The notes: generated by a model from the sequence alone, not told the origin. A DNA stretch of 52,789 nucleotides from Candidatus Levyibacteriota bacterium (GCA_027459725.1 DAIDHK010000008.1:1-52789); one strand, 5' to 3'; numbered from the stretch's first letter, positions 6,737 to 24,589 are shown. Numbers and translations are program-made.

Positions 6737-6824
6737 AGATTGTCAATTATACTATTTTAGGCTTAAAGGCAATTCCCATTTATCTTAAGCACATTTTGCC
6801 TCTATTTCAACCGAATTGGTATTG

Positions 6825-8407: not shown

Positions 8408-10009
8408 TTAGATGTAAATTGCTGATAAAATCTGATGCGGATGTGGTGAAATGGTATACACGCAGTGTTCAGGACGCTGTGCCGTAAGGCATGGAGGTTC
8501 AAGTCCTCTCATCCGCACACCTGTTGACTTGGAAGGCGCAATGCTAGCGATTATCTCAAAGGGACGACCTAATCGTTGGTTTGAAAAGTCCTTTCCGTCA
8601 AAGGTTACTCCATCTGGGAAAATTAGCCTCTGATATTTTACCCTTGCTTCAGGAAGGGCGTCATACCAAACTAAATGAGGGGTTTGAATAAATGCGTATG
8701 CATAATTGAGCAGGGCGTCAATATCCAGCTCCTCTGAATGTAATTCTGTTAAACCAATTTTTGCCAGTGTTATCTTTTGTTCGATCTCTTTCAATTGTTT
8801 CTCAAGAAGATTGTCTGGAATAATTCCCTTGCTACCTTTTTGCACAAGCCACTCTTGTTGCTGTTGTAATTCCTTAATATCATCCATTTTTCTCAGGTAA
8901 TCACCATTTATTTCTTGCAACCTCTCTTGATACCTTACACGAAAAACCTTATCAAAAAAGTCAATAAATTTTTGTTTGCCTCGATGGTGACGAAGATACT
9001 CAAAAAAATAATCCTCAAAGTCTTTTTTGGAGATCGTTTTTGAATACATTTTACAGCCTTTGTTATGGCAATAATACTTGGCATACATTCCACCATTTCC
9101 TTTTGTCCAACCTGCTGTCAGAGGTTCTCTACAAAACTTGCACATTGCAAATCTTCTGAGTGTAAAATCAGGATTATCATAAAGTCGTTTATTTATTTTG
9201 TGTCCTGTATTATGAAGAATAGCCTGACATTTTTCCCATAAAGCAATTGTGATAAGTGGCTTTTGTTTTCCCTGAATAATCTTCCCTTCCTGTGTCATGA
9301 GTAATCCTGCATAAAAACGGTTATTGAGAATTTTGTTGATGTATTGTTTGGAAAATTTTATTGTAAAACCTCTGTAATCTTTGAGTTTTCTTTTTCCCAT
9401 CAAAGAACCAAGTTGCGTTTGTGTATATGCACCAGTGCTAAAAAACGTAAAAATGTCAATTACCGATTGGTAACAATTTTCATCCCATTCGTGAGGAGAA
9501 AGTTTTGTGCCAAGCACTTTTACTCTTTTGTATCCTGTGGGAGGTTGCCATGGCCACAAGCCTTCTTCCACACGTCTCCAAATGGCTATTTTTATTCTTT
9601 CTTTACGAACTGCATTGTCATACTCATTTACAGCTGCTAGGACGCCTTCTACAAGTCTTCCTGATGGTGTCTCATCTATTCTCTCAGTTGCAGAACGTAA
9701 GATGATTTGTAGGCGAAGCAATTGTCCTCTGAGCCAATGGTGTTGTTCTTGTGAGCGAGCAAATCTATCCAATTTGAATACAACCAGCACATCAAACTTT
9801 CCCTCGTTACGTTTAGCAAAGTCCAGGAGTTCTGCTACCCGTTTCTCGTTCGTTTCTTTTGCTGAAACAGCTTCATTTTTCATGATATCAACAACTTCAT
9901 ACCCTTCTGTTTCACAGTAGGAACGACAAATCTTTTCCTGTGTATCAAGACTTGTGTTGTCAATTTGTTTATCACTACTGATGCGTAAATAAATAATTGC
10001 CTTTTTCAT
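8408..10009 (-). CDS. large serine recombinase (resolvase/invertase N-domain, recombinase domain, zinc-ribbon)
   Basis: AIIYLRISSDKQ (catalytic Ser), VVFKLDRFARS and the Cys cluster CKFC...CHNKGC. The last ~35 codons are the antisense of tRNA-Leu(CAG). Confidence 0.85.
   Translation of the reverse strand: MKKAIIYLRISSDKQIDNTSLDTQEKICRSYCETEGYEVVDIMKNEAVSAKETNEKRVAELLDFAKRNEGKFDVLVVFKLDRFARSQEQHHWLRGQLLRLQIILRSATERIDETPSGRLVEGVLAAVNEYDNAVRKERIKIAIWRRVEEGLWPWQPPTGYKRVKVLGTKLSPHEWDENCYQSVIDIFTFFSTGAYTQTQLGSLMGKRKLKDYRGFTIKFSKQYINKILNNRFYAGLLMTQEGKIIQGKQKPLITIALWEKCQAILHNTGHKINKRLYDNPDFTLRRFAMCKFCREPLTAGWTKGNGGMYAKYYCHNKGCKMYSKTISKKDFEDYFFEYLRHHRGKQKFIDFFDKVFRVRYQERLQEINGDYLRKMDDIKELQQQQEWLVQKGSKGIIPDNLLEKQLKEIEQKITLAKIGLTELHSEELDIDALLNYAYAFIQTPHLVWYDALPEARVKYQRLIFPDGVTFDGKDFSNQRLGRPFEIIASIAPSKSTGVRMRGLEPPCLTAQRPEHCVYTISPHPHQILSAIYI
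8437..8517 (+). tRNA. tRNA-Leu (anticodon CAG), type II
   Basis: Hand-folded: GCGGATG acceptor, anticodon loop TTCAGGA, variable arm TGCCGTAAGGCAT, T-arm GGAGG-TTCAAGT-CCTCT. No encoded CCA. Confidence 0.9.
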
Positions 10010-10161
10010 AATTTAATGCCTCCGCTGGGTGCACTCAGAACTGATTGGGTTCTGTCCACAACGAAGGCATTAAAAAGCCCAATCATTTACTCTGAGTGCT
10101 TTTTTATTATGTTACTTTTAGGAGTCTTTTTCAACTTCTTTTTGCTCTTAGTTTCTATTTC

Positions 10162-10386
10162 CTAAAAAGGACTGTCTTCCTCAGAAGGATTACCTACTCC
10201 ATATACGTCTGGGTGCATTTTTTGAATATAATACTTCACTTCAGAAAACCATTTAGGAAAATTGTTTTGCGTTAATCTACCTTGTTTGAAAGCAGGCGAT
10301 TCAAAAACATTCAATCCTCTCCTTTGGAGCCAGTCTATCTGTTCTGCATATTTTTCCGACAGTTCTTTCTTTTGCTTTTTTGTCAT
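10162..10386 (-). CDS. hypothetical small protein
   Basis: 74-aa ORF between the iteron-like array and the recombinase. No family recognised. Confidence 0.45.
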   Translation of the reverse strand: MTKKQKKELSEKYAEQIDWLQRRGLNVFESPAFKQGRLTQNNFPKWFSEVKYYIQKMHPDVYGVGNPSEEDSPF

Positions 10387-10427
10387 TATAATTCACCCCC
10401 TTTGTGCGAATAGTAATATGCTAATGT

Positions 10428-10545
10428 CATTGTTACTATTATTGTTACCTTCACTGTAACTATATGGTTACCTGTTACTATATTGTTACTGTTTCAATCA
10501 TGTATGGGGTAACTATCTAATAGTGACAATAAGGTAACAATATAG
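10428..10545. repeat. iteron-like array: 8 copies of (T)TGTTAC(Y)(W)T, 5 direct and 3 inverted
   Basis: GTTAC at 10432, 10444, 10467, 10474 and 10485. GTAAC at 10456, 10509 and 10534. All lie in one ~120-bp intergenic region. Confidence 0.7.
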
Positions 10546-10917
10546 TTAGAATGGTATTTCATCAGGATCAACAGTTACTGCATTAGTTATTCCTGTTGGA
10601 GCGGCATCGCCAACTTGAGAGTAATAGTCTTCCAATATCAGGTCATGTACAGCCTTCCAAAGTGTTTTGTCCTCAAGGATGAATGATGTTTGGAATCCTA
10701 GACCTACTCGAAATCCTGGGTGATCAACAGTAATAACTTCTTTTTCATTAAATGTCTTCTTTTTAATCGTAAATCCTTTCACCTTTATAAGTGGCTCAGA
10801 TGATTTTGATGGAACGAAGTGAAGTTCTGCAAAAGCTAAGATATTATCATCTCTATTTTCTGCTAATTTTACCTTTGAAACGATTTTCTCAATCTCTATT
10901 TGAATAAACTTTTCCAT
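10546..10917 (-). CDS. hypothetical protein
   Basis: 123-aa ORF, tightly packed behind the small ORF 10920..11093. Confidence 0.5.
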   Translation of the reverse strand: MEKFIQIEIEKIVSKVKLAENRDDNILAFAELHFVPSKSSEPLIKVKGFTIKKKTFNEKEVITVDHPGFRVGLGFQTSFILEDKTLWKAVHDLILEDYYSQVGDAAPTGITNAVTVDPDEIPF

Positions 10918-10919
10918 AG

Positions 10920-11093
10920 TTAAATTTTCTTTTTCTTCTTTTGTAAATACGAATCAATTGCCAAATCTGCAATAACTATAAAAATGTTGCGTAAATCTTC
11001 GATTTCTGCATCTGTCATGCTTTTTGCAACATTGCCCAAAAGTTTTCTGCATATATCTAATGGGAGTAACTGTGTCTTTTGCTCACTTTTCAT
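10920..11093 (-). CDS. hypothetical 57-aa protein (below the ORF-track cutoff)
   Basis: Hand translation: MKSEQKTQLLPLDICRKLLGNVAKSMTDAEIEDLRNIFIVIADLAIDSYLQKKKKKI. Its ATG overlaps the upstream stop by 4 nt, and it ends 2 nt before the next start. Confidence 0.4.
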   Translation of the reverse strand: MKSEQKTQLLPLDICRKLLGNVAKSMTDAEIEDLRNIFIVIADLAIDSYLQKKKKKI

Positions 11094-11329
11094 ATTGAAT
11101 TGCTGGAAAAAATCAAGTCTTTTAGGTCATGCAGTCGAGCGAAAAGATCACGAGGATTACAAAGTGCTTTATCTTGGAAGTAGTTATTTACCAATTCTTC
11201 TGCTTTATCTTTTGGAGTAAATGAAAAATATATTTCGCTATTTATTCTTTTTGTTCCAGCAAATTGTAATTTGCAAGAATAAAGAAATGCAGCAATTTGT
11301 AAGTTTTTTGTTGAATACTCGTCTTTCAT
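11090..11329 (-). CDS. hypothetical small protein (possibly DUF5659-like)
   Basis: 79 aa. The pattern LQIAAFLYSCK...YFSF resembles small phage/MGE proteins of that family; recognised by eye only. Confidence 0.45.
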   Translation of the reverse strand: MKDEYSTKNLQIAAFLYSCKLQFAGTKRINSEIYFSFTPKDKAEELVNNYFQDKALCNPRDLFARLHDLKDLIFSSNSI

Positions 11330-11444
11330 TTCAATTCCTCTGAAGACAGTTTGGAAGGAATTTCGTCAGAAAAAAAATTAAGGATGTAAGTTTCTTGAGG
11401 CAAAAAAAGCAAAAATTATTTTTACAGGTAAGTTTTTTGAGTTG

Positions 11445-12119
11445 CTATTCTATTGTGGCAGTAAGATTTTTTAACTGGTAATATCCTCGTTTATAACCAC
11501 TTCCTTTTGCATCTGGTATTATCCATCCATGTTTTTGGAGTTTTTTATTTAGGATAGCTTTCATTTGCCTATAATGTTCTGAAATAGTATTTTTGAATTC
11601 TTTGGTTTTGTGAGACTCAAGATCAGATAAAATGCTGAGAAATTCTGCCTCTTTGCTTTTGAGATTGAGTTTTTTTATAAGCTGTTTTAATTGTCGCTGA
11701 GCATCTTTTTTAGATAGTAATGTTGTTTGTTGCTCAATATCATTGATTGTAGCTGGGAGAATTTTATCCAACCATGCTTTTAGTTTTTCAAAATAAATCT
11801 CAACATATAAATATCCTTTTGGTCTTGGCTCAGTTTTATAAAACCACTTGTCGTCAATAATTTTTAGTACAGCATTTTTTTGTAGCATGTATGGAGTAGT
11901 TGGATTTGCGTAGAGAAGATATGGAATAACTGGAGAGGATTGTGGAAGTAGACCAAGACTGGTTGGTCTTTCTCTTGTGAGATATCTTTTAGCGCCATAT
12001 GGCTCCCACTCTTCCTTAGTGCTTTGAATTTCCAAACAAAGAGCGATAGCGTCATCAATATATTTTTCCATACAAATACGATCTGAATGCAATATAAATT
12101 TGTTGGTGATAATTGTCAA
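11445..12119 (-). CDS. hypothetical protein (alternative start at 12071, MEKYIDD...)
   Basis: 224-aa ORF with a Lys-rich helical C-terminal half. First gene of the minus-strand cluster that ends at the iteron array. Confidence 0.5.
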   Translation of the reverse strand: MTIITNKFILHSDRICMEKYIDDAIALCLEIQSTKEEWEPYGAKRYLTRERPTSLGLLPQSSPVIPYLLYANPTTPYMLQKNAVLKIIDDKWFYKTEPRPKGYLYVEIYFEKLKAWLDKILPATINDIEQQTTLLSKKDAQRQLKQLIKKLNLKSKEAEFLSILSDLESHKTKEFKNTISEHYRQMKAILNKKLQKHGWIIPDAKGSGYKRGYYQLKNLTATIE

Positions 12120-12192
12120 GTTTAGGTTAATATGTCAGCCCAAAGTCTGTCCAACTATTCAAATTAGTTTGATCTTGCTGTATAATTCAAAG

Positions 12193-12373
12193 TAACAATT
12201 TATTTGCCTACAACCCTCTGGTAATGCAGGGGGCATGGCATAAAGACCTGTTAGACCCAGTAAGCTCTTGTGGAGCGTCTAACAGGCTGTATATCGAAAG
12301 GTATGCAGGCGGAGCAATCCGTCGCCACAGGAGCTTTTTGTATGCTCTTGCTGGCACGAAAGGCGGTGAGAAC
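12193..12373 (+). promoter_or_regulatory. long GC-enriched structured 5' leader (candidate cis-regulatory RNA) of 12374..12859
   Basis: Putative promoter TTCAAA-17-TATAAT (-10 at 12181-12186). 10-bp stem CCTGTTAGAC (12247-12256) / GTCTAACAGG (12277-12286) with nested GCTC/GAGC. Second hairpin GGCG (12308-12311) / CGCC (12323-12326). SD-like GGCGGTGA precedes the ATG. Confidence 0.45.
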
Positions 12374-12859
12374 ATGAAAATAACAAAAACAGCAGAAGAA
12401 CAAAACAAAGATATAGTCAAAGGCGGTATTCTTTTTGGCGTTATATTTATTCTTGTTTCACTATGGCTATTTGCATCCCATCATTCATTCTTTGGAGAAA
12501 TGTTTTTAGGAGCAGGAATTCTCTTACCATTACTGATGCTTTCTCGTTATTCAACAGCAGCTGCTAAAACAAGTGGTGTGGTTCTTGGAATTGGCATAGG
12601 GGGCATTCTAGTTGTTCTCGGCATCATTTGTTTCCAAATTCCAGTTATTGGTTGGATACTCGGAATACTTTTTATTCTTTTTGGTATTGTTACTCCATTT
12701 GGTGGATTAAAACTCAATGCCACCAGTTTCCAGAGAATACAAGGAGATTGTCCAAGATGCGGAAATAAACTGATAGCACATAAAACAGATAAAGCGCTTA
12801 CCTGTAAGATATGTCAGAGGAGAGTGTTGGTAACTGAGAAGGGATTTGAATTGGCATAA
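12374..12859 (+). CDS. membrane protein (about 4 TM) with C-terminal zinc-ribbon CPRCG...CKIC
   Basis: ORF 12224..12859 trimmed to MKITKTAEEQ..., which follows an SD-like sequence. The upstream part of the ORF covers the structured leader. Confidence 0.6.
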   Translation: MKITKTAEEQNKDIVKGGILFGVIFILVSLWLFASHHSFFGEMFLGAGILLPLLMLSRYSTAAAKTSGVVLGIGIGGILVVLGIICFQIPVIGWILGILFILFGIVTPFGGLKLNATSFQRIQGDCPRCGNKLIAHKTDKALTCKICQRRVLVTEKGFELA

Positions 12860-12866
12860 CAGACGT

Positions 12867-13370
12867 TTACTCAAAGAAACTGTCATTGCAATTCATATTG
12901 TCTTTGCAAGTTACTTCGAGTAGGTCTACAGGATTTATTTTATCCAGTCCTGTTGCTTTGGCGTATTCTTTTACTTGCTGATCAGTCATGAAGTAATACT
13001 TTTGTTCTTCTTTTTTATTCACCTGTATTATACCCTTCTGGGCAAATTCTTCTGGGTCTTTTCGTTCTAAATACCATTTGGCTGTTTGTACATTTTTGTT
13101 TTTAACAATATCATCTGTTACTACTTCAGCAGCTGCTATTGTTGCAAAATTACGAGCCTGGTCTATTTTGCTGCAAAAATCAGCATCTTCATTATATTTT
13201 CGATAGAATGTAGCTCGATCAATCCGTGCGTAAATGCAGGCTTTTGTGATACTCACTCCTCGTTGCAAAACACTGACTAATTTTGCAACGGTGTCAGGGG
13301 TGAGAACAGTTGGTCTGCCAACTGGATTTAGCGTGAGGAAATTATTCATACAACTATTATATTCAGGCAC
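12867..13370 (-). CDS. HTH DNA-binding protein, phage small-terminase-like
   Basis: GRPTVLTPDTVAKLVSVLQRGVSITKACIYARIDRATFYRK, followed by AKWYLERKDPEEF. This pattern is common in small terminase and HTH proteins of MGEs. Confidence 0.5.
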   Translation of the reverse strand: MPEYNSCMNNFLTLNPVGRPTVLTPDTVAKLVSVLQRGVSITKACIYARIDRATFYRKYNEDADFCSKIDQARNFATIAAAEVVTDDIVKNKNVQTAKWYLERKDPEEFAQKGIIQVNKKEEQKYYFMTDQQVKEYAKATGLDKINPVDLLEVTCKDNMNCNDSFFE

Positions 13371-13432
13371 AATCTTTTTGCATACTGTCCAAGTGTGTAA
13401 ACTAATTGCTTTTCAGGCACAGCTGATGGATA

Positions 13433-13885
13433 ATGCTTCTGATGAAAAAAGTATTTGTTTCGATTTTTATTCTCCTTTCAGCATTGTTTCTGACAACGTC
13501 TGCATCTGCTCATAGTGGTTGTTGTTCCTGGCATGGTGGAGTACGAGCTGATGGATGCGGATGTAATGATGGGACACCTCTTTCTGATACCTGCGCACCG
13601 TACTATACGTGCAATGCTCCACAACAAAATACAGCACCAGCCAATAGTACATCAACGGATACCACAACAAATACATACACTGCACCTGTTTATGTAGCAC
13701 CGACTGATACTCCTACGTCAATTCCAACCAACACACCTATTCCGACTCCCACACTAACGCCAACTCCTACACCAAAACCAGTACATAAAATAGTTGTGAA
13801 GAAACATAACAAACCGAACAAGCCAAAACCAACGCCTACTCCAACTCCTGCAAAAAATTGGTGGCAATGGATATTTGGATGGTAA
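13433..13885 (+). CDS. secreted Cys-rich, Thr/Pro-rich protein
   Basis: Signal peptide MLLMKKVFVSIFILLSALFLTTSASA, Cys cluster HSGCCSWHGG..GCGCNDG, and a long PT-rich low-complexity tail. Confidence 0.6.
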   Translation: MLLMKKVFVSIFILLSALFLTTSASAHSGCCSWHGGVRADGCGCNDGTPLSDTCAPYYTCNAPQQNTAPANSTSTDTTTNTYTAPVYVAPTDTPTSIPTNTPIPTPTLTPTPTPKPVHKIVVKKHNKPNKPKPTPTPTPAKNWWQWIFGW

Positions 13886-13887
13886 TT

Positions 13888-15117
13888 ATGTCAGGCCTGT
13901 ATAAAAATAATCATTATGTTCCACAGTGGTATCAAAAAAGATTTCTGCCTGTCGGTCAAACAAATCAGGAGCTTTATTATTTGGATTTAAAACCTGAGAG
14001 TTTTACAGATCCAAGAGGTACTGTTCATCAAAAATCTGGTATTCACAAATGGGGTTTCAAACAATGTTTTGCAGAAGAAGATTTGTATACAACTACATTT
14101 GGTTCAGAAGAATCTACTAAAATTGAGCAATTATTTTTTGGTGATATTGATAGCAAAGGACGTGGGGCTGTGGAACACTTTTCAAATTTTACTCATCCAT
14201 CCGCAAACTATGAAGCATTTCAAAGCATGATAAATTACATGAGTACCCAAAAATTACGTACACCAAAAGGGTTAGGATTTCTCAGTTGGAAAGCACAAAC
14301 AGCCGACAAGAATGAAATCCTAAGACATATGTTGAGACTCAGAAATCTTTACTGTGCAATTTGGACAGAGTGTGTTTGGCAAATTGCAGATGCATCACAG
14401 TCTAATACAAAATTCATCATTTCTGATCATCCTATTACTGTATACAATCGCGAGTGTGGTCCTCGTTCTCCACAATGGTGCCGAGGGTATAATGATCCAG
14501 ATATTTGGCTTCATGGAACCCATACTATTTTTCCCTTGTCTCTTGATAAGGTACTTATACTTACTAATCTTTCATGGGTGAGAAATCCGTATCAGTCTGC
14601 TAAAAAGCTAAGACCAAATCCAAATCCTTTTCGAGGAGCTATGTTCAAATTTATGGATATACAAGTAATGCGTTATCTTACTGAGCAAGAGGTCAAAGAA
14701 ATAAACTTCATAATCAAAAGTAGAGCATTACGATATATTGGAGCAGCAAAGGAAGAATGGCTATATCCTGAAAAAGATATATCAAAGTCGCAGTGGAATG
14801 TTTATGGAAACGGTTATTTACTTATTCCTGATCCTCGCTCTATGCAATATGGTGGAGAAATAATGATTGGATACAAAGATGGAAGTGTTGATTCATTTGA
14901 TGAGTATGGTCGTAAGCCTTGGCAACCAGGTTACAGTAAGGCAGGTAATACTCCAAATGAATTTGTCACTTTTCACCGTTTCCAAGGGGAATTTGCTCGT
15001 TTATTTGGTCGAAAACGCAGAGGAAGATCATTTCAATTTGCACATTTAGATCCAGAGGAAGATAGCGACCAAGCACATCAATATCATTTGCAACAAGAAA
15101 AAAGGAGAGAAAAGTAA
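13888..15117 (+). CDS. DUF4238-family protein
   Basis: N-terminal NHYVPQWYQKRF matches the HYVPQ-FYL-xF signature of DUF4238. Start moved to MSGLYKNN... Confidence 0.6.
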   Translation: MSGLYKNNHYVPQWYQKRFLPVGQTNQELYYLDLKPESFTDPRGTVHQKSGIHKWGFKQCFAEEDLYTTTFGSEESTKIEQLFFGDIDSKGRGAVEHFSNFTHPSANYEAFQSMINYMSTQKLRTPKGLGFLSWKAQTADKNEILRHMLRLRNLYCAIWTECVWQIADASQSNTKFIISDHPITVYNRECGPRSPQWCRGYNDPDIWLHGTHTIFPLSLDKVLILTNLSWVRNPYQSAKKLRPNPNPFRGAMFKFMDIQVMRYLTEQEVKEINFIIKSRALRYIGAAKEEWLYPEKDISKSQWNVYGNGYLLIPDPRSMQYGGEIMIGYKDGSVDSFDEYGRKPWQPGYSKAGNTPNEFVTFHRFQGEFARLFGRKRRGRSFQFAHLDPEEDSDQAHQYHLQQEKRREK

Positions 15118-15153
15118 ACGATCAATTCGCAGATTTCGTAAATACTCTTAAGT

Positions 15154-15738
15154 TTATTTCTTGCTGCCAACTACTTCTCCGAACGCGTGCTTTTTAGTGA
15201 ATACTTTGTCTGCTGTTAATTTTAGTGTTTCCAATCTTTTGTTGTCTGGGTAAAGTGACGTAAGCCTATCAAGTAAAGCAGATATCCCTATCATTCGCCC
15301 CTGAAGTACTTGCATGCCCGATCTAAGCATTCTTCTGTCATTAGTTACACCGATAAGCTCTGGATGATTTTGGCATAAGAGTATTTGGGCGTAATCGGTA
15401 GCCGATATTTTATTGAGAACAATATACTTAGTTTCTCCATTTTCTGTAACAATAAATCTGTTTTCTTTCCAATCAGGATGCATTGCAGATTCTGCATTGA
15501 GTATATGATTAAAAAACGTCATCATTTGAGCTGGATTGAAATTTTGCCCATTTCCTATAAATTCTTCGAGAACTAAGTTGCAAACAAAAAAGGTAACATC
15601 TGATAATTCATCCAAAGCGGTAAATATGCTTACTCCGCATAATTGATACAATTTTTCAAAATAAAGAATTGTACTGGTGTCAAAAAGAAAATTATGTTTT
15701 TTACCCTGTTCTGAGAAGGTTTTGTTGTTTTGATCCAT
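15154..15738 (-). CDS. hypothetical protein (weak PIN-like N-terminus FLFDTSTI)
   Basis: 194-aa ORF convergent with the DUF4238 gene. The family call is tentative. Confidence 0.45.
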   Translation of the reverse strand: MDQNNKTFSEQGKKHNFLFDTSTILYFEKLYQLCGVSIFTALDELSDVTFFVCNLVLEEFIGNGQNFNPAQMMTFFNHILNAESAMHPDWKENRFIVTENGETKYIVLNKISATDYAQILLCQNHPELIGVTNDRRMLRSGMQVLQGRMIGISALLDRLTSLYPDNKRLETLKLTADKVFTKKHAFGEVVGSKK

Positions 15739-15817
15739 ATCAGAAGCATAACATACTAAATGAAGCTAACAGTAAATTAGTTTACGGACTTGGACACTAG
15801 TTTGCTATAATTACTTC

Positions 15818-16297
15818 ATGGATCAACTTACTGAAAAAACAAAAAGAATTCTTTCAAATAATCTTTTTATGACCCTCGCCACGTCCTCTCTTGATAATCA
15901 GCCTTGGAGTACGCCTGTATTTTATGCAGTTGACGAAAACTACAATTTTTATTGGTACTCAAGAAAAGACACTCAACATTCACTATTCATCAAGGAGAAC
16001 CCAAAGGTTTCGGTGTCTATTTTTAGTATAGGTGGACAAGATGATGGAGTCGGGCTGTATATTCGAGGGAATGCTTCTGAGGTTATTGAAAATGAGTTGG
16101 AACACGCTTTGAAAACCTACTCTGCAAAAGCTGCCTCAACAGAAGAAGCAAGAACGCAACTCACTACGAAAGAAGACTTTCTCGATGAAGCTCCCATCAG
16201 AATGTATAAACTAATCCCTGAGAAAATGTATGTTTCCAATGAAGCAAAAAAATGGAATGGAAAATGGATTGACACAAAAAGTGAGGTAAAATTATGA
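15818..16297 (+). CDS. pyridoxamine 5'-phosphate oxidase-like FMN-binding split-barrel protein
   Basis: LFMTLATSSLDNQPWSTPVFYAVDENYNFYWYS...NPKVSVSIF is the typical PNPOx-like pattern. Confidence 0.7.
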   Translation: MDQLTEKTKRILSNNLFMTLATSSLDNQPWSTPVFYAVDENYNFYWYSRKDTQHSLFIKENPKVSVSIFSIGGQDDGVGLYIRGNASEVIENELEHALKTYSAKAASTEEARTQLTTKEDFLDEAPIRMYKLIPEKMYVSNEAKKWNGKWIDTKSEVKL

Positions 16298-16800
16298 AAA
16301 CAATTCTTTACATGGCTACTACCGTCAATGGGTATATTGCCAGACCAGACGACTCTACTCCCTGGTCTGATGAAGAATGGAATGCGTATGCTGAGATGGT
16401 AAAAAGAGTTGGGAATATCATCATTGGGCGTAAAACCTATGAGATTATGAAAGATGGGGAATTTGACAGAATTGGTAACCCCTTTGTTATTGTTATTACC
16501 CAGCAAAAAGAGAATGAAACTATTCCAAATGTAGTATTTGTCAAAACTCCCGAAGAAGCACTAAAAATTGCAGAAGAAAAAGAATATACAGAAACAATGG
16601 TGAATGGCGGTAGCACCATTATTGATTTATTTGCTCAAAAGAAGCTCTTTGATGAAATTTACCTTGACGTCGAGCCTTTCGTTTTTGGGAATGGTAAACC
16701 ACTTTTTCTTCCAAGTAATTTGGAGTTACAACTTTCTTTGGAAGAAATAAAAAAGATTGGTAATAATTCTTTTCAGGTACACTATAAAGTTTTGAAATAA
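16294..16800 (+). CDS. dihydrofolate reductase-like (RibD C-terminal domain) family protein
   Basis: ILYMATTVNGYIARPDD...IIGRKTYE...GGSTI. Overlaps the previous gene by 4 nt. Confidence 0.7.
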   Translation: MKTILYMATTVNGYIARPDDSTPWSDEEWNAYAEMVKRVGNIIIGRKTYEIMKDGEFDRIGNPFVIVITQQKENETIPNVVFVKTPEEALKIAEEKEYTETMVNGGSTIIDLFAQKKLFDEIYLDVEPFVFGNGKPLFLPSNLELQLSLEEIKKIGNNSFQVHYKVLK

Positions 16801-16803
16801 TCT

Positions 16804-17214
16804 ATGTCAAAAGACTCAAAGGTTTATATTGCTCAATCTCATATTCCAAAAGCAGGACGAGGTGTTTTTGCAGCAGTTAATATAAAGAAAGGTGAAGTAA
16901 TCGAACAATGCCCTGTTTTTATAATGCCACGAAAAGATTATAAAACACTCAAAACTACTGCATTACGAGACTATTATTTCATGTGGGGTAAAACAACTTG
17001 TGTAATCTGCTTTGGATATGGTTCTCTGTACAACCATTCATATCAAGCAAATGCTACCTACAAAAAGTATATCGAGGAACAAACAATCGATTTTATTGCG
17101 ATCAAAGATATCAAAAAGGATGAAGAAATAACAGTTAATTACAACTACGGTAATCCAGAAGACACAAGTACATTATGGATCAAAGAGATAAAACCAGCAT
17201 CTAAAAAATTATAA
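16804..17214 (+). CDS. SET-domain protein (putative protein-lysine methyltransferase)
   Basis: GRGVFAAVNIKKGEVI, SLYNHSYQANA (NH motif) and EEITVNYNY. Confidence 0.75.
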   Translation: MSKDSKVYIAQSHIPKAGRGVFAAVNIKKGEVIEQCPVFIMPRKDYKTLKTTALRDYYFMWGKTTCVICFGYGSLYNHSYQANATYKKYIEEQTIDFIAIKDIKKDEEITVNYNYGNPEDTSTLWIKEIKPASKKL

Positions 17215-18087
17215 CAACGCCCCTTTTAGTAAACGAAACTCTTTTTTTGTATCCCAAATACTCTGTAATTTCTCAAAATTCTCATCTGGATTTTTCATAA
17301 ATCTTGCTAATTCATCAATTTCTTTTAGCTTATCTTCTGAGTTTTTTGGGAAATTTTGGAGCATTGCTAATTCTGGATGATGCAAATAGAGAATTTCACT
17401 ATTCATCAAGCAATGAAAGTCGTAAAATAATTGCCAAGCAATTGTTATTAGTCCTTTGAAACCACCAGCATTATTGAAATAGTCACCATTTCCTCCTTCT
17501 CTTACTGCAAGCCAAGCATCAGCAGACCAATCAAATAAACCTTCTGGAATATCATACATATTAAATCCAGTACGATGTAAACTGCCATCAACGTCCATTG
17601 TTATCCATCTTTGTTCTGTTTTATTCCAGTACTGTGTGATCCAATGATCCCATGCAACTTTTTGCCCTTCAAAGTATCCTGCAAAACCTGCTCGAACTCT
17701 TGCTGGAATTTTCTTAGCCTTGAGTATTGATGCCATGAGAATGGAAACATATCTGCATGTCAGGACAAGTTTATCCTCGACTTTTCTTTCCATTGTTAGT
17801 CCCTTTTGATCCCTATGGAAAAATTCAGCTAACATTGCAGCAGTTGTAGCCAGATTATCGTCCTCTGCCTGTCTGTACCAAGGAACTTTGGTCATATCGC
17901 CATATTTCAAATCTGCATTTGTTCCTATATTGCCAGCATCAAGAGTGGTACGGTGAATGAAGTTTTTACGAAGCAATAATCCTAGTTCTTGTACGTTGTC
18001 GGGCAGGGTTTTCAGATAGTCTTCATACAAACCTGGGTAAGTAAATAATCCAAATTCGAGGTAATGTGCTAAGACTTTGTCTTCCAT
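17209..18087 (-). CDS. transglutaminase-like cysteine protease superfamily protein
   Basis: A candidate Cys (LTCRYVSILMASILKAKKIPARVR), followed by DHW and a downstream Asp, as in transglutaminase-core domains. Confidence 0.6.
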   Translation of the reverse strand: MEDKVLAHYLEFGLFTYPGLYEDYLKTLPDNVQELGLLLRKNFIHRTTLDAGNIGTNADLKYGDMTKVPWYRQAEDDNLATTAAMLAEFFHRDQKGLTMERKVEDKLVLTCRYVSILMASILKAKKIPARVRAGFAGYFEGQKVAWDHWITQYWNKTEQRWITMDVDGSLHRTGFNMYDIPEGLFDWSADAWLAVREGGNGDYFNNAGGFKGLITIAWQLFYDFHCLMNSEILYLHHPELAMLQNFPKNSEDKLKEIDELARFMKNPDENFEKLQSIWDTKKEFRLLKGALL

Positions 18088-18309
18088 CAGACAAGAATAG
18101 CATTTATATTTTTTTTAATCCATAGCTAAATTTATTGCAAAAGGATACTGCTTGAAAATTACTCCCCACTGCTTGATAGCATCAATGAATTCATCTATAA
18201 TTTGGTTTGAAAGAACGAAACGGTAGTGCACTAGAGAGTAAACTGTTGCAAAATTTCATATTTAGCCTCGATAAGGTTCAATGTAAAAATCTAATACTAT
18301 TTATCTTGC

Positions 18310-19098
18310 TCATTTTATTTTTTTGACGTCAAAAAACTCAAAGTAAGTCAATATACTCATTGCAGCTATTACTATGAAAAAGAAGAATTCTTCAAACGGA
18401 AGTCTAACGCCAAATAATTGAACCCATCCAATATAATCTGTACCTGGGAATGACCATTGATTCAATTTTAGGGCTGTAATTTCGTATAGTAATGAGTGTG
18501 CAAAAAAATAAGATGACGTAATGAAGAAGCCTGAGATAAGTTGTCGATAATACGACAACATTGCCAATACTGGTAAAAAGATAAAAATCATACCTAGCCA
18601 AAAGTAATAGAAATGTATAACTAATAATGTTGGTATAAGCAAATATAACAGAAGAAATAGTATAAAAAGAACTATCACGAGTAACATCCCGTATTTTATT
18701 TTTCCTTCTAAAATCGTATGCTTCGCCTTATCTACAAAATGTTCGTAAAATATGACAATGGTATAAGAGAATAAAAAGATCCACATAATATCTTCAATAG
18801 CTACTTTGCCATATATCCTCAATGGAAAGATTGTTGGTACGTACCAAGCATTATCTATATATGCTGGATAGTCAAAAATAAATGCAAAAGCAAATGAGAG
18901 TAACGATGCAAAGATAGTTGTCTTTAGTATTGCTTTTCTTGTTCGGTAAGAGAAGTACAAAAGTAATGGTAGATAAAAAAGGATCAGTGACAGAAAGGTA
19001 TTTGCATGGAGAGCAAATGATATGAGCATAGCCAACAGTGGAAGTGATAGCAAACAGATTATATCTATCCCTTTCCATATTTTGTGTGTTTTATGCAT
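18310..19098 (-). CDS. polytopic membrane protein with lycopene-cyclase-domain-like repeats
   Basis: About 7 TM segments. AIEDIMW and LPFEEFFFF resemble the PxE(E/D) motifs of CrtYc/d-type cyclase domains. Confidence 0.5.
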   Translation of the reverse strand: MHKTHKIWKGIDIICLLSLPLLAMLISFALHANTFLSLILFYLPLLLYFSYRTRKAILKTTIFASLLSFAFAFIFDYPAYIDNAWYVPTIFPLRIYGKVAIEDIMWIFLFSYTIVIFYEHFVDKAKHTILEGKIKYGMLLVIVLFILFLLLYLLIPTLLVIHFYYFWLGMIFIFLPVLAMLSYYRQLISGFFITSSYFFAHSLLYEITALKLNQWSFPGTDYIGWVQLFGVRLPFEEFFFFIVIAAMSILTYFEFFDVKKIK

Positions 19099-19195
19099 AC
19101 TAATATAGTAACAAAAAATATCTATTTAGTATTGACTCACTTCGTCAAAAGATTTATATGATCGCATGAACTTGATAGAATGGTCAATAAATTGC

Positions 19196-19229
19196 TGGAG
19201 CGGTTCAAAATAAATACTCTCATCCGCAC
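19196..19229. repeat. putative attR of island 1: T-arm-like sequence plus 13-bp core repeat
   Basis: TGGAGCGGTTCAAAATAAATACTCTCATCCGCAC, compared with the tRNA 3' end TGGAGGTTCAAGTCCTCTCATCCGCAC. Confidence 0.55.
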
Positions 19230-19261
19230 CCAGCCTAAAATCATCAAACGTATTTTATTTT

Positions 19262-19293
19262 CCGTGGCTGAATAAGGTTCGAGTCCTCTCATG
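19262..19293 (+). pseudogene. orphan tRNA 3'-half fragment (variable-arm/T-arm-like)
   Basis: CCGTGGCTGAATAAGGTTCGAGTCCTCTCAT resembles the tRNA-Leu variable arm and T-arm, but has no 5' half or acceptor. Confidence 0.5.
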
Positions 19294-19442
19294 ACCTAAA
19301 TTGTAATTGGAGGTTTATGTAACGGAAATTAGTAAACTTGGTTATGTGTACCAATATCAATAAGATAAAGTGTTTCTTCGTGCTTATAATATATCACTCT
19401 AATATCACCACATACTTAAAAATATCTTTTATAACCAACGCA

Positions 19443-19841
19443 ATGTGTGGATTGAGTTTTAGAGATTTAATACCAGATGTTTATTTTGCTGATTTTCTCA
19501 GAGGACATTTAGATGGCGATGGTTATAAGACCACATATTGGGATAAAAGATGGAAAAATAGTTATATGCTTTATATAGGTTTTGTATCTGCTAGTAAGAT
19601 TCATTTAGAATGGATTAAAGGAAAAATAAGTGCACTATTTCAAGTTGAAGGTAAAATTAAATATGCAGGTAAGTCGGTATATCAATTAGTCTACGCTAAA
19701 TATGCCTCCATTAAGCTATTACAAATACTCTACTATTCAAGTGGTAATGTATGTCTGTCGCGTAAAAGGTTTAAAATTGAGTGCAGTTTCGCTATAATAT
19801 CCTTGAGCCGGGATGCTGAAATGGTAGACAGGCATGCTTGA
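19443..19841 (+). pseudogene. LAGLIDADG homing-endonuclease remnant (single-motif, truncated)
   Basis: FADFLRGHLDGDGY matches a LAGLIDADG motif. Only ~130 aa from the internal Met, and the ORF tail runs into tRNA-Leu(GAG). Confidence 0.5.
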
Positions 19842-21409
19842 GGTGCATGTGCCAGCAATGGTGTGGAGGTTCGAGTCCTCTTCCCGGCACTAGAGGGGAC
19901 TGTTTGTCCCGAATAGTACTGAATAGCTTGATATATCGGGCTAATTGAATGGTTCAATGTGCCATTATAGTCCCAAGCCAATCCTTCAGGGAACATTGAA
20001 CCTAAGAGCACTTTAGCCTGGGTTAGATTAGATCTTTTGTATGCTTCCCACAAGTCGGCAAGAATAGTTTTCATAAAAGAAGTTACTTCATCTATATTGT
20101 ATTTATCGAAAGTTGTGTCATCTTTTGCTATCTGTGCCTTTGTCATTTCACTTTCAATCATGGTATTCTGCTCCTTAAATATTTCATCAGAATAGATTCC
20201 AGCAAGGTTTTTCTGTACAAGCTGTTTTCTTATGGCTTGAAGTCTAGCAATTTCATCGTCTGCGCTATTTTTAATGTTTAATAACCTCGATTGTCTAGCA
20301 TAATAGGCTTCATATAGAGCGTTCATAAACAGTTTGAGACATTCTTCCTTAGGCGTGGTTTCTTTTAGTACACGTTTTAGTGCATCTTCGAGATCAATTA
20401 CCTTGATGGATTTACTATTGCATGGAGCACCACAGCGATAGTAAGCATATTTGCCACCATGGCCTTTAGTCATTCCCCCAGTTAGTCCTTTGCCACATTT
20501 TGCGCATTTTATAACTCTTCGCAGAGGCAAGATTGGATTATCATGATTTCTGTGAGCTAAGGCGACTTGATTAACATTTCTTCCATCTAAGATCGCTTGG
20601 ACTTTATAATATTGTTGCTCCGTAATCATGGGAACAAGTTGTCCCCTAACTTCCTGCTTATAGGTTTTCGAAGAAAGTATTCCCATATAGAATTTATTTC
20701 TAAAGAGTTTGTTCACTCTCTGAAGGCATAGAGTATATTCTTTTGTGCCTTGCCTTGCCCTTAATCCCCACTCATTCATAATATCTGCCATTTCACGAAG
20801 GCTTTTTGTTCCCGTTGCCATTAAGTCCCATGCTTCTTTCATTTTGTTCCATGTTTTGGGATCTTTAACTGCATACCCTGCTTCTACTTTGTACCCAAGA
20901 GGTGCTTGTCCTGTAACGATCATTCCTGCCATAAACCTGGCTTTTAGACCGTTTCTGGCTCTCTCGCTGCGAATATCATTATCAAGCTGAGCAAATCCAG
21001 CAAGTATTGTTTCAACAAGCTTTTCTGTAGGCGAATCCCCTGTAGGTTCTGTAGCGGATATTATATTAACGCCATTTTCAACCAACTTTTTTCGTATAGC
21101 TAAATAGTCAGCGGTTATCCTTGAAATTCTATCAAGCCTGTATACAAATACTGCTTGAAATTTATTTTTGTTCTTTCGGGAATACTCCAAAAGATTAATA
21201 AGTACTGGCCTTCCGGTAATAGTTTTAGCGGATCGTCCCTCTTCTCGGAAAACTTCAATTACCTCAAATCCTTTCTTTTCAGCTTCCCTCCTACAAATTT
21301 CTTCCTGAGTGTCGAGTGAAAAATTATCAACCTGCTCTTCTGTAGAGACACGAAGGTATAAAACTGCTTTTTGACCATCATCATATATAGTTGGTTTTTG
21401 TAGTTTCAT
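19733..21409 (-). CDS. large serine recombinase (paralog of 8408..10009)
   Basis: AVLYLRVSTEEQ (catalytic Ser), VYRLDRISR and the Cys cluster CAKCGK...YYRCGAPC. The C-terminal ~50 codons are antisense to tRNA-Leu(GAG) and its upstream flank. Confidence 0.85.
   Translation of the reverse strand: MKLQKPTIYDDGQKAVLYLRVSTEEQVDNFSLDTQEEICRREAEKKGFEVIEVFREEGRSAKTITGRPVLINLLEYSRKNKNKFQAVFVYRLDRISRITADYLAIRKKLVENGVNIISATEPTGDSPTEKLVETILAGFAQLDNDIRSERARNGLKARFMAGMIVTGQAPLGYKVEAGYAVKDPKTWNKMKEAWDLMATGTKSLREMADIMNEWGLRARQGTKEYTLCLQRVNKLFRNKFYMGILSSKTYKQEVRGQLVPMITEQQYYKVQAILDGRNVNQVALAHRNHDNPILPLRRVIKCAKCGKGLTGGMTKGHGGKYAYYRCGAPCNSKSIKVIDLEDALKRVLKETTPKEECLKLFMNALYEAYYARQSRLLNIKNSADDEIARLQAIRKQLVQKNLAGIYSDEIFKEQNTMIESEMTKAQIAKDDTTFDKYNIDEVTSFMKTILADLWEAYKRSNLTQAKVLLGSMFPEGLAWDYNGTLNHSISPIYQAIQYYSGQTVPSSAGKRTRTSTPLLAHAPQACLSTISASRLKDIIAKLHSILNLLRDRHTLPLE
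19807..19889 (+). tRNA. tRNA-Leu (anticodon GAG), type II
   Basis: Hand-folded: GCCGGGA acceptor, anticodon stem CATGC/GCATG, loop TTGAGGT, long variable arm, T-arm GGAGG-TTCGAGT-CCTCT. Confidence 0.9.
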
Positions 21410-21780
21410 GCTCCTCCCTTCTCATGAAGTAATTCTTGAAGCGTTAAGCCATCAAATATGCCTCGTTCAAAATCATCAAGCCAGCTAGTGGCTAAAAATT
21501 GAATTTCTGTAACGGCATCTCGTAATTGTTCAGAAGTAAATTCGTTAGCAATGTTTCCTAAAATTTCCTTTGCTTTCTTTAGTTGTTTTTCTTCATAAGC
21601 CTGTTCAGGAAATAAATCATCAAGAGATTTCTTAATGTTTTCTGGTGGCTTAAAGCTATTAGATGGAGCATTTAATACTTCTGTTAAAGGTTGGATTAAC
21701 TTTTCTTCCGTAGTTTTATCAGAATCAGTATTTGTAGTAGTTAAAGGTAGTGAAAATAGAGGTAATTCTGTCATATCCAT
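21406..21780 (-). CDS. hypothetical acidic protein, translationally coupled to the recombinase (candidate directionality or accessory factor)
   Basis: 124-aa ORF with a 4-nt overlap with the recombinase start. No family recognised. Confidence 0.5.
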   Translation of the reverse strand: MDMTELPLFSLPLTTTNTDSDKTTEEKLIQPLTEVLNAPSNSFKPPENIKKSLDDLFPEQAYEEKQLKKAKEILGNIANEFTSEQLRDAVTEIQFLATSWLDDFERGIFDGLTLQELLHEKGGA

Positions 21781-21813
21781 ATTAGTAAAAATTCATAAAA
21801 TCAAGGCTAATTA

Positions 21814-21831
21814 CTATCTATATATAGATAG
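21814..21831. promoter_or_regulatory. perfect 18-bp palindrome CTATCTATATATAGATAG plus an extra half-site ATATAGATAG (21843-21852)
   Basis: Located in the divergent intergenic region between the recombinase operon and the coupling-protein gene. Confidence 0.55.
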
Positions 21832-21884
21832 TTTATATCGAAATATAGATAGTGTCAAGAGCTAATTATCATTTCTGAGATAGT

Positions 21885-24575: not shown

Positions 24576-24589
24576 AGTAAGAATTGTTC

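What the first reader, a model, noticed from the sequence alone, without database searches (positions are those of the whole stretch)
8408..21409. Two related large serine recombinases, each abutting a tRNA-Leu gene and reading antisense through it
Recombinase 1 (8408..10009) and recombinase 2 (19733..21409) are clear homologs: same N-terminal catalytic domain, same Cys clusters. Each sits on the minus strand immediately 3' of a plus-strand tRNA-Leu, CAG at 8437-8517 and GAG at 19807-19889. In both, the ORF continues through the entire antisense tRNA before reaching a stop.

tRNA 3' ends are the classical targets of tyrosine integrases. A pair of serine recombinases with isoacceptor-specific tRNA-Leu targeting is less usual. 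It also means the recombinase C-terminal tail would change on excision if crossover occurs inside the tRNA. The stop-free antisense frames could be chance, because a stop-free run of ~27 codons is not rare.
Basis: partly seen in the sequence, partly recalled or inferred. Interest (0 to 1): 0.65.

Follow-up and report, generated by a model that had tools for sequence, protein, structure and literature searches.

The report
Serine integrases that target tRNA ends
Two mobile elements sit in neighbouring tRNA-Leu genes of a Patescibacteria chromosome, each inserted by a large serine integrase from a widespread clade that recombines at the very 3' end of tRNA genes, a target usually credited only to tyrosine integrases.

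Summary
ORFs 8408-10009(-) and 19733-21409(-) are large serine recombinases (LSRs), 31% identical. Each runs antisense through a whole tRNA-Leu gene.

They are the integrases of two inserted elements:
- E1 (8519-19229, 10.7 kb) carries a small terminase and looks like a phage satellite.
- E2 (19891-51180, 31.3 kb) is a conjugative element carrying metal-resistance genes.

Relatives have the same tRNA-Leu(CAG), tRNA-Leu(GAG), tRNA-Val cluster, which is the host backbone.

The tRNA overlap is a clade-wide trait. In about 103 of 141 homologous loci the ORF ends inside an antisense tRNA of many types, against 1 of 68 generic phage LSRs.

attR and attP-type sites carry the T-loop motif GTTCxA exactly 5 bp further from the junction than the tRNA does. 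That is the published attP/attB zinc-ribbon-motif offset.

A 98%-identical copy of rec2 elsewhere is joined to a different tRNA-Leu 3' end. This places the crossover at tRNA positions ~71-73, so the tRNA stays intact.

Reading through the entire tRNA is incidental, because the stop position depends on the tRNA. Targeting follows the T-arm and acceptor sequence, not the anticodon.

The recombinase C-terminal tail does change on excision.

Partial precedents exist (Dehalococcoides DsiB at tmRNA, phiRSM at tRNA-Ser).

The parts
6824..6905 (-). tRNA-Leu(TAG), a host backbone gene and not an att site. It forms an 83% inverted repeat with tRNA-Leu(CAG).
   Evidence: the same TF / tRNA-Leu(TAG) / two-paralogue block is in L243
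8437..8518 (+). tRNA-Leu(CAG). Its T-arm and 3' acceptor strand (8496-8518) form the B half-site of attL1.
8408..10009 (-). rec1, the large serine integrase of element E1. Residues ~497-533 are templated by the antisense tRNA and its 5' flank.
8515..8518 (+). GCAC (tRNA positions 71-74), the left junction of E1 that contains the inferred crossover.
8519..19229 (.). Element E1, 10,711 bp. It holds the integrase, a small terminase, DUF4238, PNPOx, RibD_C, SET and transglutaminase-like genes. It resembles a phage satellite.
12867..13370 (-). Small terminase subunit (TerS) of E1.
   Evidence: Pfam Sf6_terminase 1.7e-6; phrog_4102 1.5e-22
19202..19229 (+). attR1 P arm, GGTTCAAaataaataCTCTCATCCGCAC. 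The GTTCAA motif lies 5 bp further from the junction than in the tRNA. The 13-nt repeat of the tRNA 3' end is exact.
19276..19296 (+). Orphan tRNA-Leu T-arm fragment, GGTTCGAGTCCTCTCATGACC. Unexplained relic.
19807..19890 (+). tRNA-Leu(GAG). Its 3' part (19868-19890) is the B half-site of attL2.
19733..21409 (-). rec2, the large serine integrase of the ICE E2. Residues ~507-558 are templated by the antisense tRNA.
19891..51180 (.). Element E2, 31,290 bp, an integrative conjugative element with heavy-metal and redox cargo.
21406..21780 (-). 124-aa ORF overlapping the rec2 start codon. It is conserved next to the integrase in L241 (90%), L226 (48%) and L249. Candidate accessory or directionality factor.
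21885..24575 (+). VirD4/TraG-like coupling ATPase of E2.
25484..26245 (+). Replic_Relax relaxase-like protein of E2.
45257..50074 (+). T4SS block of E2: pilin, PrgI-like protein, VirB4-like ATPase and M23 peptidase.
51074..51232 (-). Orphan ORF that would become the C-terminal tail of rec2 in the excised (attP) state (...EEGFYFEPLLTLLTHFTRFMEAYQ...).
51153..51182 (+). attR2, GGTTCAAaataaaaccccTCTTCCGCAC|TA. It is a P arm with the +5 bp geometry and is homologous to the attP of L249.
51773..51848 (+). tRNA-Val(TAC), the next backbone gene of the conserved tRNA cluster.

Best explanation
The window is a Patescibacteria (Microgenomates / Curtissbacteria-like) chromosome segment. Its backbone tRNA cluster, tRNA-Leu(CAG), tRNA-Leu(GAG), tRNA-Val(TAC), has been invaded twice. 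E1 is a 10.7-kb element with a small terminase, inserted after tRNA-Leu(CAG) by rec1. E2 is a 31.3-kb ICE inserted after tRNA-Leu(GAG) by rec2.

Both enzymes belong to a large clade of large serine integrases found in several phyla. In this clade the B half-site of attB is the T-arm plus the 3' acceptor strand of a tRNA gene. The GGTTCRA T-loop motif most likely serves as the zinc-ribbon-domain (ZD) motif. In the element's P arm the same motif lies 5 bp further out, which is the geometry that lets an LSR tell attP from attB.

Strand exchange occurs at the last base pair(s) of the acceptor stem or the discriminator (positions ~71-73). The tRNA therefore stays host-encoded and intact.

attP overlaps the 3' end of the integrase gene. 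The reading frame crosses the crossover point. In the integrated state the last 3-50 codons are read from the antisense tRNA, giving a variable tail that is predicted to be disordered. In the excised state they are read from the P arm.

Shown: domain architecture, clade-wide tRNA overlap, att geometry, island boundaries, and the same ICE at two different tRNA-Leu ends. Inferred: the exact crossover dinucleotide, the role of GGTTCRA as ZD motif, and catalytic activity.
For: Protein family:
- Pfam hits, PDB sequence hits, an AF2 model with NTD, RD, ZD and a coiled coil at 346-425, and Foldseek top hits to SPbeta, Bxb1, phiC31 and LI integrases.

Clade-wide overlap with tRNAs:
- Homologue tails carry G[FILV]EP.
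- 63 of 76 ORFs (the two window ORFs included) and 42 of 67 end inside an antisense tRNA (Glu, Ala, Lys, Leu, Arg, Ile, Val, Asn, Met, Gln, Gly). 61 of 63 share one frame.
- The control set gives 1 of 68.

att sites:
- The exact 13-mer occurs only at 8506-8518 and 19217-19229.
- A search for exact 9-mers with no motif requirement gave 8 hits in 7 loci against 1 on the control strand. Six of the 8 have GTTCxA at 11 nt, where the tRNA has 6 nt.
- attP-state ORF tails contain WN, that is TGGAAC, the reverse complement of GTTCCA.
- The 5-bp ZD-motif shift is published (PMC3783163).

Crossover position:
- L241 (integrase 98% aa identical, ~90% nt over 4.6 kb) reads TCCTCTCATCCGCAC|TAGAGGGGAC, where the window reads GTCCTCTTCCCGGCAC|TAGAGGGGAC.
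- P arms are element-specific up to the final CAC. L243 and L005 share a P arm although they target Leu and Ile. L025's attR equals L028's attP. L031 and L033 share CTTGGGTCA although their host tRNA ends differ.
- Identity between attL and attR is 94-100% only at positions 68-73.

Backbone and mobility:
- L243 and L246-248 have LeuCAG and LeuGAG 4-45 nt apart, followed by integrase plus element. In L243 the element ends 3 nt before tRNA-Val(TAC).
- E2 gene content is that of an ICE.
- The flank of attR2 is homologous to the attP of L249.
Against: - No empty site, circular junction or read-level evidence exists for these particular elements. No public run holds the window.
- The B' and P' half-sites show no clear inverted copy of the motif.
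- The candidate crossover dinucleotide would be palindromic in some members (GC at 71-72 in the window, CG at 72-73 in tRNA-Glu with discriminator G). The register may therefore differ between subclades.
- Some subclades (L020/L184, and L042, L200, L230) have P-side sequences with T-loop remnants in tRNA register, including a 22-nt repeat. These would also fit a crossover further inside the tRNA in those members.
- The attR searches required the motif, so only and the attP-state tails are non-circular evidence for the 5-bp shift.
- Locus sets from the two collections overlap partly, so counts are approximate.
Confidence: 0.85

Rival explanations
1. Tyrosine-integrase-like logic: the crossover lies well inside the tRNA (T-loop or T-stem), and the element supplies a replacement 3' end that restores the gene. 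The 9-22 nt direct repeats would then be the displaced tRNA fragment.
For: - E1 has a perfect 13-nt repeat of the tRNA 3' end.
- L020 has a 22-nt repeat starting in the T-loop.
- In the Acidobacteria pairs L055 versus L064 and L065, the repeat covaries with host acceptor polymorphisms.
- The Dehalococcoides ssrA islands were interpreted this way (PMC3146451).
Against: - The same ICE integrase gene (98%) is joined to two different acceptor strands that each match their host tRNA.
- Many attR and attP sites differ from the host tRNA at positions 65-70 and agree only from ~68/71 onward.
- L243, L249 and L001 P arms have no acceptor-like segment at all.
Confidence: 0.07
2. The tRNA genes belong to the elements as cargo, and the real junctions lie 5' of the tRNAs.
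For: Mobile elements often carry tRNAs. The ORFs cover the entire tRNAs in this window.
Against: - Relatives have the LeuCAG-LeuGAG(-Val) cluster as backbone whatever element is present.
- In L241 similarity to the window stops exactly at GCAC, not 5' of the tRNA.
- attR sites repeat only the 3' terminus.
Confidence: 0.03
3. Chance or annotation artefact: the recombinases merely lie near tRNAs, the overlap has no meaning, and the genes are relics that no longer move anything.
For: A stop-free run of ~27 codons is not rare. There is no direct evidence of current activity.
Against: - About 103 of 141 family loci show the overlap, against 1 of 68 controls.
- The frame is conserved, the catalytic motifs are intact, and the same ICE sits at two sites.
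Confidence: 0.03

Closest known systems
Phage large serine integrases (A118/LI, Bxb1, phiC31, SPbeta, TP901-1)
   Same: Same domain order: catalytic NTD with a long alphaE helix, recombinase domain, zinc ribbon with an inserted coiled coil. Short att sites in which a motif lies 5 bp further out in attP than in attB.
   Different: Identity is only ~13-18% in the structural alignments. Those enzymes target protein-coding or intergenic sites (from general knowledge). Here the B half-site is a tRNA T-arm plus acceptor, and attP overlaps the 3' end of the integrase ORF.
Dehalococcoides ssrA-specific genomic islands and their serine integrase DsiB (McMurdie et al. 2011, PMC3146451)
   Same: A ~540-aa serine recombinase at the left edge of the island, on the reverse strand, with attL embedded in its gene. 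The target is the 3' end of a tRNA-like gene. A conserved motif lies just upstream of the repeat in attR. Islands occur in tandem arrays.
   Different: The target is tmRNA, not tRNAs. The repeat is 20 bp with insertion inferred in the T-loop. A second small serine recombinase (DsiA) is part of that module, and none is seen here. Homology of rec1 or rec2 to DsiB was not tested because no sequence was available.
phiRSM filamentous-phage integrase (Askora et al. 2011, as summarised in PMC4471427)
   Same: A serine recombinase shown experimentally to integrate and excise at the 3' 13 bp of a tRNA-Ser gene.
   Different: It is a small resolvase/invertase-type enzyme without the RD-ZD-coiled-coil C-terminal domains.
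Tyrosine-integrase genomic islands in tRNA/tmRNA genes (Islander/TIGER class, PMC4383910)
   Same: The island sits at the 3' side of a tRNA gene, with the integrase gene next to the tRNA, a partial repeat at the far end, and frequent target switching between tRNAs.
   Different: The enzyme family and chemistry are unrelated. No tRNA fragment needs restoring here. [quoted passage not shown]
Elements whose attP lies inside a gene so that the product changes on integration (SSV1 integrase; mycobacteriophage BPs-type integration-dependent immunity)
   Same: Integration alters the C-terminus of an element-encoded protein. This comparison is from memory and was not checked here.
   Different: Those systems use tyrosine integrases. 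A regulatory role for the tail swap is unproven here.

Membership tests
Large serine recombinase / serine integrase | N-terminal resolvase-type catalytic domain with conserved Arg/Ser/Gln motif | tested here: met
   PF00239 at 8.4e-26 (rec1) and 4.8e-31 (rec2). R9, S11 and Q15 are nearly invariant in 34 homologues.
Large serine recombinase / serine integrase | Recombinase domain (RD) followed by a Cys4 zinc-ribbon domain (ZD) | tested here: met
   PF07508 in both and PF13408 in rec2. C290, C293, C314 and C319 are conserved. Sequence hit to A118 integrase CTD 4kis.
Large serine recombinase / serine integrase | Long coiled-coil motif inserted in the ZD | tested here: met
   AF2 model has helices 346-393 and 399-425 with pLDDT ~80-90. 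Full-length Foldseek matches to SPbeta, Bxb1 and phiC31 integrases, E 1e-13 to 1e-19.
Large serine recombinase / serine integrase | attP half-site carries the ZD motif ~5 bp further from the crossover than the attB half-site | tested here: met
   GTTCxA lies 6 nt from the acceptor 9-mer in tRNAs and 11 nt from it in attR/attP-type sites: W-E1, W-E2, L053, L055, L064, L065, L072, L028, L048, L234, L236. A few (L001, L002, L061) show a 4-nt shift. That GTTCxA is the ZD motif is inferred.
Large serine recombinase / serine integrase | Recombination needs only a short (2-bp) identical core and leaves no long obligatory direct repeat | tested here: inconclusive
   Shared sequence is as short as CAC/GCAC in L243, L249 and W-E2, but 9-22 nt in others. 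The exact dinucleotide is not determined.
Large serine recombinase / serine integrase | Catalyses attP x attB integration | not testable with these tools
   No reads or runs are available. An assay is needed.
Integrative conjugative element (E2) | Integrase plus relaxase, coupling protein, VirB4-type ATPase and other T4SS parts, all between att sites | tested here: met
   (TraG/VirD4-like, Replic_Relax, T4SS_pilin, PrgI, P-loop_TraG/AAA_10, M23); att sites.
Dehalococcoides ssrA-GI integration module (DsiB/DsiA) | Target is ssrA (tmRNA), and a second small serine recombinase (DsiA) lies next to the large one | tested here: not met
   The targets are tRNAs. The ORFs next to rec1 and rec2 have no Resolvase domain. 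Sequence relatedness to DsiB was not tested.
Classical tRNA-gene genomic island (tyrosine integrase) | Tyrosine recombinase, and attP carries a tRNA fragment that restores the split gene | tested here: not met
   The integrases are serine recombinases. The acceptor strand at attL is host DNA.
Phage satellite (PICI-like) (E1) | Small integrated element with integrase and packaging-hijack gene(s) such as TerS, but no full virion module | tested here: inconclusive
   TerS is present and no other structural genes were detected. Helper phage, replication module and induction are unknown.

The most novel reading that the evidence does not exclude
The tail swap may be functional. In the excised state the integrase carries a conserved element-encoded C-terminal peptide. 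The P-side tail is conserved for ~20 codons beyond the crossover between rec2 and a 67%-identical relative. After integration this peptide is replaced by an arbitrary, disordered peptide templated by the tRNA. The protein, or its mRNA 3' end, would then report the integration state and bias stability, activity or directionality. This would be a serine-integrase counterpart of integration-dependent regulation. Separately, because the B half-site is the near-universal tRNA T-arm, this clade may be retargetable simply by changing the few bases next to the crossover.
Probability: 0.15. Interest if true: 0.8.

Novelty: new variant of a known kind. Interest (0 to 1): 0.62.

Why it matters
Textbook and database practice assigns tRNA-gene islands to tyrosine integrases. 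Islander explicitly excludes serine recombinases on that ground.

This analysis shows a large, phylogenetically broad LSR clade dedicated to tRNA 3' ends. It occurs in Patescibacteria, Acidobacteriota, Chloroflexota, Nitrospirota, Verrucomicrobiota and other MAGs. Its att architecture can be read directly from sequence.

Consequences:
- Island-finding tools that require a tyrosine integrase or a long tRNA-fragment repeat will miss these elements. They include ICEs and satellite-like elements in CPR bacteria, whose mobile elements are poorly known.
- It offers natural experiments on how an LSR reads attB versus attP, since one half-site is a known, conserved tRNA sequence.
- It offers candidate integrases whose landing pads already exist in most genomes.

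Tried and rejected
- Generic repeat search for a long duplicated tRNA fragment downstream of each integrase: nothing of 14 nt or more. The attR sites appeared only with targeted 13-mer and 9-mer searches.
- Read-level test for excision or circular junctions: only one run held 5% of the words and none held the backbone.
- IMG/VR: the E1/E2 P-arm pattern gave no hit. The viral collection holds only distant LSRs (35% identity or less), which were used as a negative control.
- Relaxed attR scan (3 mismatches, 3 spacings): too many false positives, 59 against 41 on the control strand. Only hits that matched other P arms were used.
- A candidate attR for E2 at ~40831-40856 (2 mismatches): rejected. 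It lies inside ORF 40367-40879 and would split the T4SS, coupling-protein and relaxase set.
- The idea that 51153 was the attR of a lost rec1-type element: rejected. ICE genes fill 21.9-51.1 kb, and the flank is homologous to the attP of a rec2-clade relative.
- Search for an inverted copy of the motif in the B' and P' arms: no consistent pattern seen by eye.
- The initial claim that rec1 and rec2 share a frame through the tRNA: corrected.

Full report
OBSERVATION. ARAGORN places tRNA-Leu(CAG) at 8437-8518(+) and tRNA-Leu(GAG) at 19807-19890(+). It also finds tRNA-Leu(TAG) at 6824-6905(-) and tRNA-Val(TAC) at 51773-51848(+). ORFs 8408..10009(-) (rec1, 533 aa) and 19733..21409(-) (rec2, 558 aa) both run through the whole antisense tRNA before a stop.

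Both are large serine recombinases:
- Pfam Resolvase and Recombinase in both, plus Zn_ribbon_recom in rec2.
- 31% mutual identity over the full length.
- Sequence hits to Bxb1, TP901-1 and A118 integrase structures.
- An AlphaFold model of rec1 with a catalytic domain and long alphaE helix (1-148), RD (180-266), zinc ribbon (288-327) and a two-helix coiled coil (346-425). Residues 485-533, the part templated by the tRNA, have pLDDT below 40.
- Foldseek's best matches are full-length SPbeta, Bxb1, phiC31 and LI integrase complexes.

One detail of the finding needs correction. rec1 reads the T-arm as ...GLEPP and rec2 reads it one nucleotide out of that frame (...RTRTSTP).

THE OVERLAP IS A TRAIT OF THE WHOLE CLADE.
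- rec1 homologues (34-69% identity; Curtissbacteria, Shapirobacteria, Chloroflexota, Omnitrophica and others) almost all end in G[FILV]EP after a conserved FSN..L...F.LI....V motif. That peptide is the antisense translation of the T-loop GGTTCRAnnCC.
- Among 80 loci from one-genome-per-species contigs plus the two window genes, 63 of 76 evaluable ORFs end inside an opposite-strand tRNA: Glu 28, Ala 14, Lys 10, Leu 4, Arg 4, and Ile, Val, Asn one each. 61 of the 63 share one frame.
- Among 75 metagenome loci, 42 of 67 evaluable do, adding Met, Gln and Gly. Several of the rest are cut by the contig end inside a tRNA.
- As a control, 68 evaluable phage LSRs from IMG/VR (23-35% identity) gave a single 12-nt overlap.
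- The ORF covers the entire tRNA in only 11 of 63 cases. The stop falls at a position fixed by the tRNA type: 41 nt into Glu, 38 into Ala-GGC, 65 into Lys-CTT.
- For the rec2 clade, 55 of 120 homologues end ...S[SC]A(D/E)ER[TS]*. Their stop is the TGA created by a TTCAAGT T-loop. rec2 reads on only because tRNA-Leu(GAG) has TTCGAGT.

So entering the tRNA 3' end is the conserved feature, and reading through the whole tRNA is incidental.

ISLAND BOUNDARIES AND BACKBONE. The 13-mer CTCTCATCCGCAC, the 3' end of tRNA-Leu(CAG), recurs exactly once, at 19217-19229. There it is preceded by GGTTCAA-aataaata, where the tRNA has GGTTCAA-gtc. A very similar site, GGTTCAAaataaaaccccTCTTCCGCAC, lies at 51153-51180.

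Between tRNA-Leu(GAG) and that site the genes form an ICE:
- a VirD4/TraG-like coupling ATPase and a Replic_Relax protein;
- CzcD, DsbD-cupredoxin, two DsbA-like proteins, DUF305, two metal P-type ATPases and a cupredoxin;
- a T4SS pilin, a PrgI-like protein, a VirB4-like ATPase, an M23 peptidase and a PLD nuclease.

E1 (8519-19229, 10,711 bp) carries a small terminase (phrog_4102, 1.5e-22) but no other virion genes. E2 is 19891-51180 (31,290 bp).

Relatives confirm the backbone. In L243 (integrase 69% identical to rec1) and L246-248, tRNA-Leu(CAG) and tRNA-Leu(GAG) lie 4-45 nt apart and are followed by integrase plus element. In L243 the 8.4-kb element (integrase, TerS-like gene, HTH) ends 3 nt before tRNA-Val(TAC). 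Host genes are 44-52% identical, and E1's cargo is not shared.

WHERE THE CROSSOVER IS.
- A search for exact copies of tRNA positions 65-73 upstream of each integrase, with no motif requirement, found 8 hits in 7 loci and 1 on the control strand. In 6 of the 8 hits GTTCxA lies 11 nt before the 9-mer, where the tRNA has 6 nt.
- ORFs with no tRNA at their end (L028, L048, L234, L236, L242 and others) read ...WN... at the matching place. WN is TGGAAC, the reverse complement of GTTCCA. L001, L002, L061, L166 and L176 read ...IRT... (TTCGAAC) with a 4-nt shift. These are attP-state or tandem P-P' junctions.
- This is the geometry described for LI integrase, where the ZD motif occupies positions 16-24 in attP and 11-19 in attB (PMC3783163).

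Three lines place strand exchange at the extreme 3' end of the tRNA:
1. L241 carries E2's integrase (98% aa identity; ~90% nt over 4.6 kb, with other ICE segments at ~81%). Its junction reads TCCTCTCATCCGCAC|TAGAGGGGAC, while the window reads GTCCTCTTCCCGGCAC|TAGAGGGGAC. The acceptor strand is therefore host DNA, and the switch lies within GCAC (positions 71-74).
2. P arms are element-specific up to the last CAC. L243 (Leu) and L005 (Ile) share TTTGGTTTGAAAGAAC..AA.GGT.GT.CAC. L025's attR equals L028's attP while the host tRNA differs at positions 65, 67 and 69. L031 and L033 share CTTGGGTCA although their tRNA ends differ.
3. In L053 and L072 the identity between attL and attR stops at position 73.

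Over 17 loci, identity is 94-100% only at positions 68-73, and it is 100% at 69, 72 and 73. The dinucleotide is therefore 71-72 or 72-73. I cannot choose between them, and the register may differ between subclades. The tRNA is left intact.

attR2 is validated independently. Joining its flank to rec2 predicts a tail ...GFYFEPLLTLLTHFTRFMEAYQ. The real tail of P0207, a 67%-identical integrase in attP configuration in L249, is ...ALYIEPALTWFTSLMEFYQ. The DNA aligns through GGTTCRAWATAAA up to CAC.

SPECIFICITY. Specificity follows the 3'-terminal sequence, not the anticodon. In L243 the acceptor GCGGATG/CATCCGC sits on the GAG gene, and that is the gene used by the rec1 relative. rec2-type integrases mostly sit at the CAG-type end. 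In this window that end is occupied by E1, and E2 uses the GAG gene. "Isoacceptor-specific" is therefore not the right description.

COMPARISON WITH WHAT IS KNOWN.
- The Dehalococcoides ssrA islands have a 540-aa serine recombinase, DsiB, at the left edge with attL embedded in the gene, a 20-bp repeat and a conserved motif upstream of the repeat. This is a bioinformatic inference, the target is tmRNA, and there is a partner, DsiA.
- The small resolvase-type integrase of phiRSM phages uses the 3' 13 bp of tRNA-Ser, shown experimentally.
- 27 of 937 Prochlorococcus tycheposon-type elements carry an LSR.
- I found no description of this clade, of the T-arm as the B half-site, or of a crossover at positions 71-73. 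The library searched is incomplete.

I therefore rate it a new variant of a known kind.

LIMITS. There is no experimental or read-level evidence for activity of these two copies. The role of GGTTCRA as ZD motif and the exact dinucleotide are inferred. B' and P' arms show no obvious symmetry. A few subclades (L020/L184, L042, L200, L230) have P-side T-loop remnants in tRNA register that might reflect a different crossover position. Locus counts include some duplicate contigs between collections.

Noticed in passing
window 19276-19296: Orphan T-arm fragment GGTTCGAGTCCTCTCATGACC in the 577-nt spacer between attR1 and tRNA-Leu(GAG). It is identical to the tRNA-Leu T-arm of L003/L243 up to about position 68 and then unrelated. 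It may be a relic of an older rearrangement or of a lost tRNA-Leu copy.
   Followed up: partly
window 8519-19229 (TerS at 12867-13370): E1 has an integrase and a small terminase but no other virion genes. Its relative in L243 also has an integrase, a TerS-like gene and an HTH regulator in 8.4 kb. This suggests a family of phage-satellite-like elements in Patescibacteria.
   Followed up: partly
window 19891-51180: A complete-looking ICE (coupling protein, relaxase, pilin, PrgI-like, VirB4-like, M23 and PLD nuclease) with copper, zinc and other heavy-metal plus disulfide-redox cargo, in a CPR-type genome. L241 carries the same ICE with part of the cargo replaced (window 26.7-28.2 kb, including czcD).
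   Followed up: partly
window 51074-51232 (-) and L249 4110-4240: The P-side continuation of the integrase ORF is conserved for about 20 codons beyond the crossover between rec2 and P0207. In the circular form it would overlap the start of the PLD nuclease gene (50629-51087). This may reflect a functional tail or an int-PLD operon junction.
   Followed up: partly
L246-L248 (P0003, 562 aa): In these Curtissbacteria contigs the integrase ORF reads antisense through two tandem tRNA-Leu genes (GAG then CAG, 4 nt apart). The tail therefore contains two GxEPP motifs.
   Followed up: no
L055 (four sites about 0.9 kb apart) and L033 (three sites): Tandem arrays of attR-type P-arm sites without integrase genes lie downstream of the occupied tRNA. 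They resemble the repeat arrays described downstream of Dehalococcoides ssrA.
   Followed up: no
window 6824-6905 versus 8437-8519: tRNA-Leu(TAG) and tRNA-Leu(CAG) form an 83-nt, 83% inverted repeat 1.5 kb apart. Relative to L243, the trigger-factor / tRNA-Leu(TAG) block lies on the other side of the tRNA cluster and in the opposite orientation, which indicates a rearrangement between lineages.
   Followed up: no
window 19338-19841 (+): A 167-aa TTG-start ORF with no family hit runs into the 5' half of tRNA-Leu(GAG) in the sense direction. It is probably not a gene.
   Followed up: no
window 5191-5871 and 5888-6736: A DUF5660 protein and a short (282-aa) trigger factor, together with ~36% GC and best hits in Curtissbacteria and Levybacteria, point to a Microgenomates-group Patescibacteria host.
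   Followed up: partly
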